A stretch of 64,000 bases of DNA. It comes from an uncultured Sphingomonas sp. (GTDB taxonomy: Bacteria; Pseudomonadota; Alphaproteobacteria; Sphingomonadales; Sphingomonadaceae). How positions within the stretch are numbered: position 1 is the stretch's first letter; every line of letters begins with the position of its first letter. Both the position numbers and the translations under genes were made by a program. Under the pieces are notes generated by a model. It did not search any database, was not told where the DNA came from, and was given only the letters and a program-made list of their open reading frames with translations. Shown here piece by piece: positions 39,120 through 44,013 of the stretch. The stretch spans positions 3,209 to 67,208 of the forward strand of contig NZ_CADCVZ010000008.1 of assembly GCF_902806265.1 (NCBI RefSeq), read 5' to 3'.

Positions 39120-40934
39120 TTACCCGAGCGACAACTCGTGCAGCTCGCTCACCAGCCGCCACTCGCCGAGGTCCGCGAGCATGACCCGCGCCGCCTGCTC
39201 GGTGAGGTCGGCGGCGCGGGGGAGGTCGGAGGTGCCGCGGAGATCACGGGCGATCCGGTCGAGCAGCGCTGCCGTATGCCGCGCGCGGTTGGCCGCCGCG
39301 CGGTAGTCGCCCTGCACCCGGATGCCGAAAATGGCGGTGCCGAGCGCCGGCAGCCCGGCCGAAAGGACCGTTGTCCAATTGCCGGCCCGCCCAATCAGCT
39401 CCGGCGCGAACTCCAGCGCGGCGATGGTCAGGAACGTCAGCAGAAGCGTCGCGATGAACAGCGCGAGGCCGACATGCTCCAGCCGGCCGTCGAGCCGCTC
39501 GGCCTGGGTCGCCGCGGCACGATTGTAGGCGATCTGCGGCTGCAGCTCGCGCTCGGCGATCGCGGCGGCGAGCGTGGGCAGGTCCTCCCTCCGCATCCGG
39601 CCTGCGGGACAGCCGACGGTCCGCCACATGGCCGCCGAGTACCAGTCGATCCACCGTCCGGCGATCGGCTCGGCGGCGGTGCCTGGCGGATCGGGCGCGG
39701 CGATGCCCAGCAGCTTGAGGCTGCGCATCGGCCGCAGCCGCTCGGCCAGTTGGCGGTAGTCGAGCCAGCGCTGGTGCCAGCAGCGGCGCGAGCCGGTAAT
39801 GGTGTTCACCACCACCACCAGCACGACCAGGAACTCGGCCAGCGCGAGCAGTGCCGGATCGGCATGCAGCACCAGCCCGGACAGGCCGAGCCACACCCCG
39901 AGCGCCGCCAGCAGGAAGTTGAGCACATGGCTGCTGCGATAGATCTGGGCGAAATGGGTCGCCAGCCGGTCGCTCCAGCCGTAAGCCGCCTCCAGCATGT
40001 CGAACGACGCCGACACGCCATGGCAGCCGACGCAGGTCTCGCGGTAGGCGTGCCATTCGGCCTGGTCCGCAGCGATCTGGGAGCGCGCGCTCAAGTCCCT
40101 GCGCGACAGGGCGCGAGTTCCCGTAAGCGCCATCAGCAGCGGATACTCCAGCCGCCAGCGCAGCAGCCGCTGGGTTTCGGCAAGGAAGCCGCGGGCGAAC
40201 CGCCGCTCGGAGTCGACTGCGGGAGGAGCGAGCATCGCCTCCAGGATCGTCCGCAGGGCCTCGGGCGTGGCCGGCCGGCCGCACGCTCGATCTCCCGGGA
40301 GGGTGACGACCACCGGATCGAAGGCGCTCCACAGGAGTGTGGCCGGCGCGGTGCCGTCCGGCGGGATGTGGAGAATGGGCGTGCCGCGGGTCAGCGCCAG
40401 CTCGACGGTCTCGGCCGTGCCCCCGCGGCCGCGTGCGGGAAGCCCGTCCCACACGGCGATGAGCAGGTCGCAGTGGGCCACCGTCGCGCGCCCGGCCATG
40501 ACATAGGCATCGATTGGGGAAGCCGGATCGCCTGGCAGTTCGAGCACGCAGCGGGAGCGTGCGAGCAATTGTTGAAGCCGGTCCGCGGCTTCGGGCTCGA
40601 GCCGAGCGCAGTCGTCGCTCGGCAAGGGCAATACGGCCTGCAGCTCCCAGCCTTGCTCTACGGCGAGCAAGGCCGCCATCTGGTCTGCCCCGCCGGCCAA
40701 GGGGGAGACCAGGGTGAAGCAGGGCGGGTCATGGGCGAACACCTCGCGCTCGCGCTCCAGGATGACGAGCGCCCCCTTGCGCAAGGCGTCGAGCGCTTGT
40801 CCGATCCGGACGGCAAGTTGGTCAAGGGCGTCGCCCGTCGGCAGCGCCTCGCTGCGGTGCCCGGTGATCCCGACAGTCAGGGAGAAAGGGGGGCGCGGAG
40901 GCCCAAGGCCGGCAGCTCCCCCACCCTCCCCCAT
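39120..40934 (-). CDS. SLOG domain fused to two SLATT/DUF4231-like 2TM modules
   Basis: N-terminal VGITGHR, VSPLAGGADQ, LIAVWDG..GRGGTAETV; TM pair followed by W.DYRQLAERLR; second TM pair and terminal DLGEWR. Confidence 0.8.
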   Translation of the reverse strand: MGEGGGAAGLGPPRPPFSLTVGITGHRSEALPTGDALDQLAVRIGQALDALRKGALVILEREREVFAHDPPCFTLVSPLAGGADQMAALLAVEQGWELQAVLPLPSDDCARLEPEAADRLQQLLARSRCVLELPGDPASPIDAYVMAGRATVAHCDLLIAVWDGLPARGRGGTAETVELALTRGTPILHIPPDGTAPATLLWSAFDPVVVTLPGDRACGRPATPEALRTILEAMLAPPAVDSERRFARGFLAETQRLLRWRLEYPLLMALTGTRALSRRDLSARSQIAADQAEWHAYRETCVGCHGVSASFDMLEAAYGWSDRLATHFAQIYRSSHVLNFLLAALGVWLGLSGLVLHADPALLALAEFLVVLVVVVNTITGSRRCWHQRWLDYRQLAERLRPMRSLKLLGIAAPDPPGTAAEPIAGRWIDWYSAAMWRTVGCPAGRMRREDLPTLAAAIAERELQPQIAYNRAAATQAERLDGRLEHVGLALFIATLLLTFLTIAALEFAPELIGRAGNWTTVLSAGLPALGTAIFGIRVQGDYRAAANRARHTAALLDRIARDLRGTSDLPRAADLTEQAARVMLADLGEWRLVSELHELSLG

Positions 40935-40937
40935 GCT

Positions 40938-41393
40938 TCAGGCGATGTTCTTGATGATAGGATCGCACTCGTAAGTGGACTTGTCCTCGCCATCGAAGAA
41001 CAGGGAATAGGTATAAACCCCTTTGGTGCCGGGGTTTTCTACATCAAGGGAACGGCCGGCTATCGTGGAATCATCGACTTGAGCAGGCCAGTCCTTCGCG
41101 CGGTCTACTGGGCACTCAAGTCCCTCTTGCACACTAAATGGGGTTGAACTGAACCTCAGGTCTAGCCCCGTGTCATCGATAAGCCTGAAGCGTATGATCC
41201 CTCGTCGGCCGGCTTTTGTAATGATCGCGTGAGCGTTCACCTTCTCACCCGGCTTTTTGTCGTCGACGGCTCCGCCTAACGCGAACAACACCGTATCGAG
41301 ATCCCGATCCCAGATTGCGTGTACGTTCACCTTGACCTTTAGTGGCACCAGCGTTTCGGCTTGAGTTTCGTCGCCAAACATTGCCTGATCCAT
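40938..41393 (-). CDS. Small beta-rich protein ending DPIIKN (paralog B)
   Basis: gggaga SD 5 nt before ATG 41393; 151 aa; shares motifs with paralog A. Confidence 0.8.
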   Translation of the reverse strand: MDQAMFGDETQAETLVPLKVKVNVHAIWDRDLDTVLFALGGAVDDKKPGEKVNAHAIITKAGRRGIIRFRLIDDTGLDLRFSSTPFSVQEGLECPVDRAKDWPAQVDDSTIAGRSLDVENPGTKGVYTYSLFFDGEDKSTYECDPIIKNIA

Positions 41394-41425
41394 GGTGCTC
41401 TCCCTGTTGATCGCTGCTGAGCCGA

Positions 41426-41839
41426 TCACAAGCCGTTCTTGATGATCGGGTCAAAGTGGAACGTGCCGCCGTCGCCCTCGAAGTTGAGGGCGTAGCCGAA
41501 CTCGCCATTCTGCGAATTGGTGTCGGTGATCGTGAGCTTCTTCCTGCCGAGTTGCCGGATCAGGAACTCGCCATCCGCGTCGCCCGGCTGGGTCGGGCAG
41601 GCCGATCCGTTCTGAAGCCAGATCGCCTCGCGCGGCGTTTCGGGAAATCGGAGGTTGCGGCCGGTCCGATCGTCGAGGTCGAAGGTGATATCGGCAGGTC
41701 CATCCGCCGTGATCTGAAGTACTTGGCCGTTCTTCCTGCCGCTTCCGGGCGGGACGAAGCGGCAGTCTCTGTCGTCCCAGTCGATCCCGCCGTTCCCGTC
41801 AGGTCTCGCCTTCAACGTGACCACCACCTTGGTTGGCAT
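41426..41839 (-). CDS. Small beta-rich protein ending DPIIKN (paralog A)
   Basis: ATG 2 nt after the TIR gene stop, G-rich SD; 137 aa; hidden at the end of ORF-track entry 41426-42391. Confidence 0.8.
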   Translation of the reverse strand: MPTKVVVTLKARPDGNGGIDWDDRDCRFVPPGSGRKNGQVLQITADGPADITFDLDDRTGRNLRFPETPREAIWLQNGSACPTQPGDADGEFLIRQLGRKKLTITDTNSQNGEFGYALNFEGDGGTFHFDPIIKNGL

Positions 41840-41841
41840 CG

Positions 41842-44013
41842 TCAGCCCCCCTGCTGCATGAACTTGGCGTAGAGCGGGTGCTGGTAGCCCAAGCCACCAA
41901 GGCGCGCCGCGATGCGCTGGGCCTCGCCAGTCTGCCCGACGCGGCTGAGCAACAGGGATCGCAGCGCGAGATCGTCGGGACTGGTGGCCGCTTCGGCCCG
42001 CCAGTTCTCCAGCGCCGTCTGCCAGGCGAGCGCCGCCTCCTGCCCGCGGGAAAGCATTTGCAGCGCATCCCCCGCCAACAGCCGCGCACGGGCCAAATCC
42101 GCTTGACCCCGCAAGGTGTTGTGGCGGGAAGCTTCGGCGTTCGCGACAGCTTCGTCCGCCTGGGTGAGTGCGTCGCCGGGCGCACCGCCGGCAAGCGCCA
42201 GCCGCGCCCGCGCCAGCAGGCATTGACGCCGCAAGGTCTCGCTCCAGCCCACCACGGTGCTGTCGCGGGCGATCAGGCGATCCACGATCCCGCAGCCGGC
42301 TTGCGCCGAGCCTGCGGCAGCGGCCAACTGGTCGTGCGACAGTTGCACTTCCGCTGCAACGAAGTAAGCGCGTGCCGCGCGCTCCGACCATTGCGAGTTG
42401 GCCGGGTCGGTAGCGAGAAGCTGTTTGGCAAGTTTCACTCCGGTATGGGCGTGCACGGAAGCTGACTCCGCCTGACCGGTTGTAAGATGCAGGCGAGCAA
42501 GAGCCGGCTCACCGGCCAGCCGCTTGAGCCGGAACTCCATGTCGTCGGGGAAAGCAGCCATCGCTCGTCCCGCAAGTCCGATCATTCTCTCCCTGGTCCG
42601 AACCGCTTCCCGAAGCCGTCCTGCGCCGGCCTGTGCGTCGGCGAGGTAGGCGAGCGACTCCAACCGCTGTTTCTGGTAGTCGCGGTTCTGAGGCTCGAGT
42701 GCGATCAGCCTCTCGAGCGGTGGGAGGGTGCCGGCGAACAGTCGGCCTGCCTCGGAGTACCGCTCATGGGCCTGGAGCAGAAGCACGCCAAGGTTGTGGT
42801 CGGCATAGATGCCTTCCATCAGATACTCGCGATTGGCGGGCGCCAGCGCGATCATGCGCTCCGTCATCCGCTTGTACTCGCGCCAGGCGCTCGCGGCCTC
42901 GGCGATCCGGCCTCGCTGCCAGGCGATCGAGCCGATGTAGAACAGGTTCTGCGAATGGTCGTACAAGCGCCGCGCATCGTCGGGATGGCGGCGGAGCAGC
43001 TCAAGGGTGGTCGCGCCTGCCTCCCGGTAGCGCCGCAACGCGCCGTCGAGGTCAGCCCGGCGCTGGGCGATGTCGCCCATCATCGTCAGTGCCCTAGCCC
43101 GCTGCGCCAAACCCTCGTCCGTGAGGGAGCGTTTGTCTTGCTCTTCATAATATTCGAGAGCCCGCACGCCGACCACGTCAAGCGCTTCGAGTTTGCCGAT
43201 CGGTTCGAGCCGGTCCCGTAGATCGCCCAGCATAAAGCCGATCAGCCCTTCGGCCTCTCGCCGCTGATGACGCGCTTCGTCGCGCGCCTGGACGGAGCTG
43301 ACCGCAAGGCCGGTGGCTGCCAGCATGCCGGCGATCGATGCCGCGCTGATCCCGACCATGCGGCGATGGCGATGGACCTCGTCGCGCCGAACCAGCTCGT
43401 CGAGTCGGAGGTCGAGCATGCCCGCGACGAGCTTGAGCAGCCCCCGTGCGCGCCCGTCCCCACCCGGGCGAAGGTCGACGGCGATCGGCTCCGCAGCCTC
43501 CCCGGTCGGCTCGCCTTCCTCGTCGAACTGCTCGCGCATCGCGGGTGGGAAGCATTCGTCGGCAGCGCGGTCAGCCAGCCGTGACGCCCAGGGCTCGCCG
43601 GCGACGATGACGGCGAGCACCTCGCCGTCAGGCCGCAGCCGTTTGAAGGTGCGTATCTCCTCGTCGACCCAGCGGCTTTTCGCAGCCGCCGGCGAGCACA
43701 GCACGATCAAGTGTCGCGAACATTCCAGCGCCTGCTCGATCTCTTCCGACAGGTCGTCCGCGGCGGCCAACTCGCTGCGGTCGCGAAAGATGGGGATCAG
43801 CCGTGCCGGAACCAGGAAGCGCTCCGCCCGCCGTCCGACCAGGGCTTTGGGCACCCGGAATCGCTCAAGCGCCCGGTGGAGCCGTTCGGCCTCGCTTGCA
43901 TCCGCGTGGCTGTAGCTGAGGAACGCCCAGTAGCGCTGAACAAAGGGCGCGCGAACGGGTCCTCGCCGAACTCCGGCGGCAACGCTGCGGGACAGGACGG
44001 CCGAGCCTTCCAT
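41842..44013 (-). CDS. TIR domain - transmembrane helix - TPR-like repeat protein
   Basis: AFLSYSH, IFRDR, LIVLCSP.AAKSRWVDEEI (TIR, Glu119); TM about residues 219-241 after RHRR; helical TPR-like C-terminal region. Confidence 0.9.
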   Translation of the reverse strand: MEGSAVLSRSVAAGVRRGPVRAPFVQRYWAFLSYSHADASEAERLHRALERFRVPKALVGRRAERFLVPARLIPIFRDRSELAAADDLSEEIEQALECSRHLIVLCSPAAAKSRWVDEEIRTFKRLRPDGEVLAVIVAGEPWASRLADRAADECFPPAMREQFDEEGEPTGEAAEPIAVDLRPGGDGRARGLLKLVAGMLDLRLDELVRRDEVHRHRRMVGISAASIAGMLAATGLAVSSVQARDEARHQRREAEGLIGFMLGDLRDRLEPIGKLEALDVVGVRALEYYEEQDKRSLTDEGLAQRARALTMMGDIAQRRADLDGALRRYREAGATTLELLRRHPDDARRLYDHSQNLFYIGSIAWQRGRIAEAASAWREYKRMTERMIALAPANREYLMEGIYADHNLGVLLLQAHERYSEAGRLFAGTLPPLERLIALEPQNRDYQKQRLESLAYLADAQAGAGRLREAVRTRERMIGLAGRAMAAFPDDMEFRLKRLAGEPALARLHLTTGQAESASVHAHTGVKLAKQLLATDPANSQWSERAARAYFVAAEVQLSHDQLAAAAGSAQAGCGIVDRLIARDSTVVGWSETLRRQCLLARARLALAGGAPGDALTQADEAVANAEASRHNTLRGQADLARARLLAGDALQMLSRGQEAALAWQTALENWRAEAATSPDDLALRSLLLSRVGQTGEAQRIAARLGGLGYQHPLYAKFMQQGG

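What the first reader, a model, noticed from the sequence alone, without database searches (positions are those of the whole stretch)
41842..44013. Toll-like topology: cytoplasmic TIR, single TM, predicted periplasmic TPR array
Seen: TIR (about aa 27-185), then RHRR, a 23-aa hydrophobic helix (43291-43359) and about 480 aa of helical repeats. The positive-inside rule suggests N-in, C-out. Known: Thoeris ThsB proteins are small and soluble. Inference: the system senses an envelope event such as phage adsorption, DNA ejection, toxin delivery or predator contact, rather than a cytoplasmic phage protein.
Basis: partly seen in the sequence, partly recalled or inferred. Interest (0 to 1): 0.7.

Follow-up and report, generated by a model that had tools for sequence, protein, structure and literature searches.

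The report
Membrane-spanning bacterial TIR receptor with TPR sensor
This Sphingomonas-type gene encodes an NAD-cleaving TIR enzyme domain inside the cell, tied by one membrane helix to a large TPR repeat domain that most probably faces the periplasm. It sits in an operon with a nucleotide-gated pore-type protein, so it looks like a Thoeris-type alarm pathway that listens outside the cytoplasm.

Summary
ORF 41842-44013 (-) encodes 723 aa: a TIR domain (Pfam TIR_2, ThsB_TIR) with the catalytic Glu intact, one hydrophobic helix (aa 219-241) and about 480 aa of confidently modelled TPR solenoid.

The N-in/C-out topology is supported, not proven:
- The helix has no charged residue in 204 relatives.
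- Positive-inside bias is weak in this protein (5 vs 4 K+R) but consistent in 106 diverse relatives (5.1 vs 3.1).
- The post-helix part is Cys-poor, with one conserved Cys pair.
- The same TM-plus-TPR module follows Ser/Thr kinases, ToxR-like wHTH regulators and a cyclase-STAND NTPase.

The gene heads a tight operon: TIR-TM-TPR, two small DPxIxN proteins, then a SLOG-SLATT membrane protein. This order recurs in Sphingomonadaceae, always beside ispG, so it is inherited vertically and is not a mobile island. The closest known system is type VII Thoeris (TIR plus SLATT effector, cADPR signal).

It is plausible, given the variable distal TPRs and fast-evolving small partners, some of which are lipoproteins. 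I rate it a new variant of a known kind. I found no paper that describes it.

The parts
41842..44013 (-). Gene for the 723-aa TIR-TM-TPR protein (stop codon 41842-41844)
   Evidence: ORF list. Full-length homologs of 45-86% identity. Codon check.
43414..43932 (-). Cytoplasmic TIR domain, aa 28-200
   Evidence: Pfam TIR_2 and ThsB_TIR. AF2 pLDDT about 80-94.
43657..43659 (-). Codon of Glu119, the predicted catalytic glutamate (W115-x-x-x-E119)
   Evidence: Aligns with the Glu of 'WCLDEL' in the plant TIR 3jrn and with the Glu after the Trp in the bacterial TIR 7uxr. E in 203 of 204 relatives, W115 in 202 of 204.
43291..43359 (-). Single transmembrane helix, aa 219-241, preceded by R-H-R-R
   Evidence: KD19 peak 1.8. 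0% charged residues in columns 221-241 of 204 relatives. S226, G229, M230, L236 and A240 are nearly invariant.
43144..43290 (-). Juxtamembrane helix with the motif QARDEAR..RREAEGLIGFMLGDLR..LEPIGKL, the most conserved part of the protein
   Evidence: Mean top-residue frequency 0.83. The same motif follows the TM in kinase, wHTH and STAND fusions.
41854..43143 (-). TPR solenoid, aa 291-720. The proximal repeats are conserved and the distal ones (aa 401-723) are variable.
   Evidence: AF2 helix pairs with pLDDT above 90. TPR hits in Foldseek. Entropy 1.3 bits proximal versus 2.1-2.4 bits distal.
42220..42294 (-). Stretch bounded by the codons of Cys574 (42292-42294) and Cys598 (42220-42222), the only two cysteines after the TM helix
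   Evidence: Both Cys present in 190 of 204 relatives. Among the 14 exceptions, one keeps a single Cys and 13 keep neither. They lie at mirror positions of the adjacent antiparallel helices H563-583 and H588-608. The disulfide itself is inferred.
41426..41839 (-). Small protein A (137 aa, ends DPIIKNGL). Its ATG is 2 nt after the TIR gene's stop.
   Evidence: The family HMM finds 1-2 copies directly after the TIR gene in 74 of 80 related loci.
40938..41393 (-). Small protein B (151 aa, ends DPIIKNIA), a paralog of A with GC 53.7%
   Evidence: BLASTP of A against B: 34% identity, E 9e-9. GC content.
39120..40934 (-). 604-aa SLOG-SLATT protein: an N-terminal YpsA/DprA-like SLOG domain plus two pairs of TM helices. 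Its ATG is 3 nt after small B's stop.
   Evidence: NCBIfam SLATT_1 E 4.4e-13, above the cut-off. Pfam DUF4231. AF2 pLDDT 88. Best PDB folds are YpsA 2nx2, DprA and ShosA. Present downstream in 59 of 73 informative loci.

Best explanation
The gene encodes a bitopic inner-membrane TIR enzyme that acts as the receptor-like signal generator of a Thoeris-like pathway.

Shown:
- The TIR domain keeps its catalytic Glu.
- There is one conserved TM helix and a TPR solenoid.
- The gene lies in a tight operon with two small DPxIxN proteins and a SLOG-SLATT membrane protein.

Inferred topology: TIR in the cytoplasm, TPR in the periplasm.

Inferred mechanism:
1. A ligand or partner bound by the variable distal TPRs changes the packing or clustering of the receptor. 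This passes through the conserved juxtamembrane helix and the TM helix, whose invariant small residues suggest helix-helix contact.
2. The cytoplasmic TIR domains self-associate. This is what switches on TIR NAD+ cleavage or cyclisation in other systems.
3. The product, a cADPR-type nucleotide, binds the YpsA-like SLOG domain of the 604-aa protein.
4. The SLATT helices then permeabilise or depolarise the inner membrane, causing growth arrest or death.

The trigger is unknown. It could be phage contact, a competitor's attack or envelope damage.
For: - TIR and catalytic Glu.
- TM conservation.
- AF2 model with separate, confident TIR and TPR parts and a low-confidence isolated helix between them.
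- Positive-inside bias in 95 of 106 diverse relatives.
- Cys depletion after the TM (0.25% versus 1.17%) and a conserved, co-lost Cys pair. DsbB is present.
- The same TM-juxtamembrane-TPR module follows Pkinase, Trans_reg_C (ToxR-like), wHTH-BTAD and cyclase-nSTAND1 domains, always with the TM.
- Operon spacing of 2, 32 and 3 nt.
- The operon order is conserved in 59 of 73 informative loci.
- In other genera a TPR-S (PF20308) protein takes the effector's place.
- SLATT and SLOG assignments.
- Type VII Thoeris shows experimentally that TIR plus a SLATT effector defends against phage with cADPR as the signal: 10.64898/2025.12.03.692087.
- YpsA-clade SLOG domains are described as cADPR sensors: PMC9503650.
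- DdvA is a solved precedent for a periplasmic TPR sensor that controls defence genes: PMC11506125.
Against: - No experiment or dedicated predictor fixes the topology.
- This protein's own flanks give only 5 versus 4 K+R, with four Arg just after the helix.
- A simple Hessa-scale sum for the helix is about +2 kcal/mol, which is marginal.
- The even-Cys bias does not extend to distant relatives.
- SLOG-SLATT is missing in 14 of 73 loci where the TIR gene is intact, so the coupling is not obligatory.
- The locus is syntenic beside housekeeping genes, unlike typical defence islands.
- Both small proteins of this genome lack export signals.
- No ThsH or type VII ThsB sequence was available for direct comparison.
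Confidence: 0.55

Rival explanations
1. The architecture and chemistry are the same, but the role is not anti-phage. The operon would be a vertically inherited envelope-stress or cell-state pathway of Sphingomonadaceae that turns a periplasmic or cell-wall cue into an NAD+-derived second messenger, which tunes membrane potential or dormancy.
For: - The position beside ispG is conserved in 61 of 80 loci, with flanking asparaginase, EamA and S1/P1 nuclease genes. No mobile or defence genes lie nearby.
- The gene is present in about a third of the family's genera.
- The same sensor module serves kinases and transcription factors, which is ordinary signalling.
Against: - The TIR-TPR and SLOG-SLATT proteins diverge much faster (45-53% identity) than their neighbours (ispG about 88%).
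- The small partners diverge fastest of all, and one has a foreign GC content. This pattern is typical of conflict systems.
- Every TIR-plus-SLATT system tested so far is a phage defence.
Confidence: 0.25
2. The hydrophobic helix only tethers the protein to the inner face of the membrane, or is a packing or oligomerisation helix. The TPR array stays in the cytoplasm, where it senses a cytoplasmic phage or host protein as soluble TPR-containing immune sensors do.
For: - The helix is rich in Ala, Gly and Ser and is only marginally hydrophobic.
- Four Arg follow it.
- TPR and WD40 arrays are usually cytoplasmic sensors in STAND and Avs proteins.
- Both small partner proteins in this genome lack signal peptides.
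Against: - A 21-column charge-free stretch is kept in 204 relatives, and the mean KD19 is 2.0 in 106 diverse relatives.
- The N-side positive bias is consistent.
- Cys is depleted after the helix.
- The ToxR-like wHTH fusion has the classic bitopic design.
- Some partner proteins are lipoproteins or membrane-anchored.
Confidence: 0.12
3. The TIR domain is itself the effector, depleting NAD+ when triggered. The SLOG-SLATT gene would be an independent or accessory neighbour.
For: SLOG-SLATT is absent from 14 of 73 loci that keep an intact TIR-TM-TPR gene and a small protein. Many bacterial TIRs are NAD+-depleting effectors.
Against: - The order TIR, small protein(s), SLOG-SLATT holds in 59 of 73 loci with tight, near-abutting spacing.
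- Other genera substitute a different predicted TIR-signal sensor, TPR-S. That argues for a signal-and-receiver pair.
Confidence: 0.08

Closest known systems
Type VII Thoeris (ThsB TIR + ThsH SLATT effector, canonical cADPR signal); bioRxiv 10.64898/2025.12.03.692087
   Same: A TIR protein with the catalytic Glu is encoded with a SLATT-domain membrane effector. The predicted logic is the same: a TIR-made ADPR-type nucleotide opens or assembles a membrane-breaching protein.
   Different: - Here the TIR protein is 723 aa, membrane-spanning, and carries a large TPR domain predicted to be periplasmic.
- The effector has an extra N-terminal SLOG domain and two TM pairs.
- One or two small DPxIxN proteins lie between the two genes.
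- The locus is syntenic and chromosomal rather than in a defence island.
- Homology to ThsH and ThsB of type VII, and the identity of the signal, were not tested.
Type I and type III Thoeris (TIR proteins with SLOG-containing effectors; ThsA = SIR2-SLOG)
   Same: A SLOG domain is the presumed receiver of the TIR product.
   Different: There is no SIR2 domain. The output is SLATT membrane helices. The SLOG domain is closest in fold to YpsA and DprA; similarity to the ThsA SLOG was not shown.
Animal Toll-like receptors
   Same: A single-pass membrane protein with a repeat-solenoid ectodomain and a cytoplasmic TIR domain. Activation is expected through ligand-driven association of TIR domains.
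   Different: - The domain order is reversed: N-terminal TIR and C-terminal ectodomain, a type II orientation.
- The repeats are TPR, not LRR.
- The TIR domain keeps the catalytic Glu and is expected to be an enzyme, not only a scaffold.
- This is convergence, with no evidence of common descent of the whole architecture.
Bitopic bacterial sensors that use the same TM-TPR module: Ser/Thr kinase-TM-TPR, ToxR-like wHTH-TM-TPR and cyclase-nSTAND1-TM-TPR proteins
   Same: The TM helix, the juxtamembrane motif (AEGLIEFMLGDLR.KL.PVGRLD) and the TPR array are homologous (E down to 1e-50).
   Different: The cytoplasmic output domain differs. As far as I could find, none of these relatives has been characterised either.
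DdvA of Myxococcus xanthus (PDB 8rw5; PMC11506125)
   Same: A single-pass membrane protein whose periplasmic TPR-containing domain is proposed to sense a phage cue and switch on defence genes (CBASS, CRISPR-Cas).
   Different: The resemblance is only at the fold level (Foldseek rank 39). DdvA's output is an anti-sigma domain released by proteolysis. It has a CHAT domain and no TIR.

Membership tests
TIR domain superfamily (enzymatic, NAD+-cleaving type) | Match to TIR profiles above the curated cut-off | tested here: met
   TIR_2 46.7 bits (cut-off 28) and ThsB_TIR 39.5 bits (cut-off 21.2).
TIR domain superfamily (enzymatic, NAD+-cleaving type) | Catalytic glutamate after the conserved Trp (W-x-x-x-E) | tested here: met
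   E119 aligns with the Glu of the plant TIR 3jrn and the bacterial TIR 7uxr. It is invariant in 203 of 204 relatives.
TIR domain superfamily (enzymatic, NAD+-cleaving type) | NAD+ cleavage or cyclisation activity | not testable with these tools
   Needs a biochemical assay.
Thoeris defence systems (any type) | TIR gene in an operon with an effector that carries a signal-binding domain | tested here: met
   SLOG-SLATT lies 3 genes downstream with 2-32 nt gaps. It is conserved in 59 of 73 loci. TPR-S effectors occur in other genera.
Thoeris defence systems (any type) | Enrichment in defence islands or mobile context | tested here: not met
   The locus is fixed between ispG and the asparaginase or S1/P1 nuclease genes in 61 of 80 loci. 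No PADLOC system match beyond weak domain hits.
Thoeris defence systems (any type) | Protection against phage, with infection-dependent signal production | not testable with these tools
   Needs plaque assays and LC-MS.
Type VII Thoeris | Effector with a SLATT domain | tested here: met
   NCBIfam SLATT_1 49.3 bits (cut-off 41). DUF4231 26.3 bits (cut-off 24.7).
Type VII Thoeris | Sequence relationship of the TIR and the effector to ThsB(VII) and ThsH | not tested
   No ThsH or type VII ThsB sequences or models were available in the libraries on hand.
Type I Thoeris | SIR2-SLOG effector (ThsA) | tested here: not met
   No SIR2 match in any operon protein.
Bitopic (single-pass, N-in/C-out) membrane receptors | Exactly one conserved TM helix and no N-terminal signal peptide | tested here: met
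   The N-terminal 27 residues are polar and variable.
Bitopic (single-pass, N-in/C-out) membrane receptors | C-terminal domain located outside the cytoplasm | tested here: inconclusive
   Indirect support only: charge bias, Cys pattern and module reuse. There is no direct test.
Toll-like receptors | N-terminal LRR ectodomain, TM helix, C-terminal scaffold TIR | tested here: not met
   The order is reversed and the repeats are TPR. The protein is an analogue, not a member.

The most novel reading that the evidence does not exclude
Sphingomonads, and through the WD40-bearing and kinase- or wHTH-linked relatives many other bacteria, would possess true outside-in pattern-recognition receptors. A periplasmic repeat ectodomain detects an external or envelope event before any phage component reaches the cytoplasm. 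It switches on a cytoplasmic TIR enzyme through one TM helix, and the resulting ADPR-type messenger gates a SLOG-SLATT pore. This would be a functional, convergent counterpart of Toll-like receptor signalling. The fast-evolving DPxIxN proteins, some of them lipoproteins, would act as co-receptors or decoys.
Probability: 0.3. Interest if true: 0.85.

Novelty: new variant of a known kind. Interest (0 to 1): 0.62.

Why it matters
All characterised Thoeris TIR sensors are soluble proteins that detect infection from inside the cell. A TIR enzyme wired to a periplasmic sensor would mean that bacterial NAD+-derived immune or stress signalling can be triggered from the envelope. That is earlier in an attack than any known Thoeris system.

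It would also give a bacterial parallel to Toll-like receptors that can be tested with simple fusions and an NAD+ readout.

The shared TM-TPR module, found in more than 5,000 clusters at 50% identity behind TIR, kinase, DNA-binding and STAND domains, points to a widespread and unstudied extracytoplasmic input domain. Its ligand is worth finding.

Tried and rejected
- PADLOC gave only weak domain-level hits (SAVED_TIR, ShosA) and no system call.
- Foldseek of the whole TIR-TM-TPR model returned only generic TPR proteins. It says nothing about the ligand or the compartment.
- Model coordinates are not exposed, so the Cys574-Cys598 distance could not be measured. I used helix-register reasoning instead.
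- I looked for stand-alone 'signal-anchor plus TPR' relatives. The short hits turned out to be gene fragments that start inside the TIR's last helix.
- I tested for an even-number Cys bias in distant relatives. It is absent: 68 even versus 47 odd, against 70 versus 45 before the helix. Only the Cys depletion holds.
- I searched for ectodomains with an unambiguous periplasmic identity on the same TIR-TM unit in 350 alphaproteobacterial genomes. I found only WD40 propellers, which do not settle the compartment.
- The S1/P1 nuclease that follows the small gene in loci without SLOG-SLATT looked like an alternative effector. It is just the conserved flanking gene.
- Pfam and NCBIfam give nothing for the small DPxIxN proteins.
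- Burroughs et al. 2015 (NAR) could not be read; it is not held.
Full report
**What is there**

The minus-strand ORF 41842-44013 encodes 723 aa.
- Pfam finds a TIR domain at aa 31-138: TIR_2 at 5.6e-12 and ThsB_TIR at 7.6e-10, both above their cut-offs.
- A hydropathy scan finds a single hydrophobic stretch, aa 219-241 (nt 43291-43359). R-H-R-R precedes it and no other segment comes close.
- An AlphaFold2 model built on 24 homologs has mean pLDDT 84. It gives a confident alpha/beta TIR fold (aa 28-200), a low-confidence isolated helix (aa 209-246) and about ten helix pairs of TPR solenoid with pLDDT mostly above 90.
- Foldseek returns only TPR superhelices.

**Is the TIR likely active?**

The motif W115-x-x-x-E119 aligns with the Glu of 'WCLDEL' in a plant TIR structure (3jrn) and with the Glu after the conserved Trp in a bacterial TIR structure (7uxr). 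From established knowledge of TIR NADases, this Glu is the catalytic residue. In 204 non-identical relatives E119 is kept in 203 and W115 in 202.

**The family**

More than 2,265 proteins of almost the same length match, at 45-86% identity. They come from Sphingomonas, Sphingomicrobium and Allosphingosinicella. A pattern scan of species-representative genomes found 497 loci. Within the family Sphingomonadaceae, 39 of 112 genera have a match.

Conservation is highest in the TIR domain, the linker, the juxtamembrane helix and the first TPRs. It falls sharply in the distal TPRs: entropy is 0.8-1.3 bits against 2.1-2.4 bits. This looks like a constant signalling core with a diversifying tip.

**Topology**

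No tool here measures topology, so I collected indirect tests.
1. *The helix.* Columns 221-241 have no charged residue in any of 204 relatives. S226, G229, M230, L236 and A240 are nearly invariant, which suggests specific helix-helix packing rather than a mere anchor.
2. *Charge bias in this clade.* The positive-inside rule is weak here: K+R is 5.0 on the N side and 4.0 on the C side, with net charge +2.0 versus -0.6. A simple Hessa-scale sum is marginal at about +2 kcal/mol.
3. *Charge bias in distant relatives.* In 106 diverse relatives (clusters at 50% identity or less) that share the TM-TPR module, the bias is consistent. K+R is 5.09 versus 3.11, the N side exceeds the C side in 95 and the reverse holds in 3. 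Mean KD19 is 2.0.
4. *Cysteines.*
   - The part after the helix holds exactly two cysteines in 190 of 204 relatives, whereas the TIR part holds 2-5 with no pattern.
   - Of the 14 exceptions, only one keeps a single Cys of the pair.
   - In the model the two Cys sit at mirror positions of neighbouring antiparallel helices.
   - Distant relatives show a 4.7-fold Cys depletion after the helix (0.25% versus 1.17%) but no even-number bias.
   - The genome encodes DsbB.
   - This fits an oxidising compartment but does not prove it.
5. *Module reuse.* The same TM helix, juxtamembrane motif and TPR array follow four other kinds of N-terminal domain:
   - Ser/Thr kinase domains;
   - a ToxR-type wHTH domain (L081, Trans_reg_C);
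   - a wHTH-BTAD pair;
   - a cyclase-nSTAND1 NTPase.

   The helix is always retained. All of these N-terminal domains need cytoplasmic substrates, which is the classic design of a bitopic sensor.
6. *No signal peptide.* The N-terminus has none, and a 215-aa TIR domain that needs NAD+ is not expected to be exported.

I put N-in/C-out at about 0.8.

**Context**

The gene heads a tight operon (gaps of 2, 32 and 3 nt):
- TIR-TM-TPR.
- Small protein A and small protein B, which are paralogs that end in DPIIKN.
- A 604-aa protein whose C-terminal half matches SLATT_1 and DUF4231. The best structural matches of its N-terminal domain are YpsA, DprA and ShosA, that is, the SLOG superfamily.

In 80 related loci:
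- ispG lies divergently upstream in 61.
- One or two DPxIxN genes follow the TIR gene in 74.
- SLOG-SLATT follows in 59 of the 73 loci with enough sequence.
- In the other 14 the effector gene is simply missing, and the next gene is the conserved flanking S1/P1 nuclease.

In more distant Sphingomonadaceae the partner is instead a TPR-S (PF20308) protein. The Thoeris preprint notes that the TPR domain of ThsI had earlier been predicted to take part in TIR signalling. In other alphaproteobacterial families the same TIR-linker-TM unit carries WD40 propellers.

**Comparison with known systems**

A 2025 preprint shows that TIR plus a SLATT effector (type VII Thoeris) defends against phage using canonical cADPR. 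Types I and III use SLOG-bearing effectors. YpsA-clade SLOG domains are described as cADPR sensors, and SLATT as an ADPR-derivative-regulated membrane effector.

The locus therefore works like a Thoeris system. It fails one customary feature, the defence-island context, and its TIR protein is unlike described ThsB proteins. Full-text searches found no paper on a bacterial TIR-TM-TPR protein.

DdvA is a solved example of a periplasmic TPR sensor that controls defence genes.

The likeness to Toll-like receptors is one of logic, not of membership. The domain order is reversed, the repeats are TPR, and the TIR domain is expected to be an enzyme.

**Role**

Two features suggest conflict:
- The receptor, the effector and especially the small proteins diverge faster than their neighbours.
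- Small protein B has a foreign GC content.

Vertical inheritance at a fixed housekeeping site suggests a domesticated or physiological sensor instead.

Of 105 small-protein copies, 35 have a C-terminal TM helix and 3 are lipoproteins. Both copies in this genome have neither. This ties the operon to the envelope without settling what is sensed.

**Earlier notes of this scan**

Notes from this scan describe the same four-gene operon and similar TIR-TM receptors in other genomes. I treated them as leads. Here I re-derived the operon, and I found the WD40 variant independently.

**Verdict**

The envelope-event inference is open. I rate this a new variant of a known kind.

Noticed in passing
window 40938-41839 (-); L001-L080 directly downstream of the TIR gene: There is a family of small (about 140-190 aa) proteins that end in DPxIxN(GG), with no Pfam or NCBIfam match. 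One or two copies sit between the TIR and SLOG-SLATT genes in 74 of 80 loci. Of 105 copies, 35 have a C-terminal TM helix followed by an R/K-rich tail. Three have lipoprotein signal peptides (L006, and the second copies in L074 and L079). L039 has an N-terminal hydrophobic anchor. They are the fastest-evolving part of the operon.
   Followed up: partly
window 40938-41393: Small protein B has GC 53.7%, against 68-72% for the TIR and SLOG-SLATT genes and 62.6% for paralog A. It may be a swapped or recently acquired cassette.
   Followed up: partly
L081:3695-5668 (+) and L081:5722-6204 (+): A ToxR-like regulator (Trans_reg_C wHTH, TM helix, then the same TPR module) in another Sphingomonadaceae genome is followed by a 160-aa protein with an N-terminal TM helix. 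That protein's C-terminal end (...KYTVNLID...CIDPHVKNLP) resembles the DPxIxN family. If so, the small proteins may go with the TM-TPR sensor rather than with the TIR.
   Followed up: partly
L102-L105 (other alphaproteobacterial families): The same TIR-linker-TM unit (39-51% identity) is fused to about 800 aa of WD40 propellers instead of TPRs. In L104 a second TIR-domain gene (406 aa) lies directly downstream.
   Followed up: partly
L007, L015, L016, L021, L026, L042, L046, L048, L055: These loci keep TIR-TM-TPR plus a small protein but have lost SLOG-SLATT. The next gene is a signal-peptide-bearing S1/P1 nuclease. The same nuclease lies downstream of SLOG-SLATT in L001-L004, L013, L024, L033, L051 and L075. 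The window itself has no S1/P1 nuclease gene.
   Followed up: yes
L087:8255-10021 (+), L088:7813-9384 (+): In two more distant genera the gene after TIR-TM-TPR encodes a 520-590 aa protein with an N-terminal TPR-S / MAP3K_TRAF_bd domain. Its C-terminal 350 aa are unannotated. It may be an alternative effector.
   Followed up: no
L089:5860-7746 (+), L094:5369-7381 (+): These TIR-TM proteins carry a different juxtamembrane segment (..YLIGTFELTDPATENPRT..) and a different TPR array (TPR_12-like by eye) after the helix. The sensor part has been swapped within the family.
   Followed up: no
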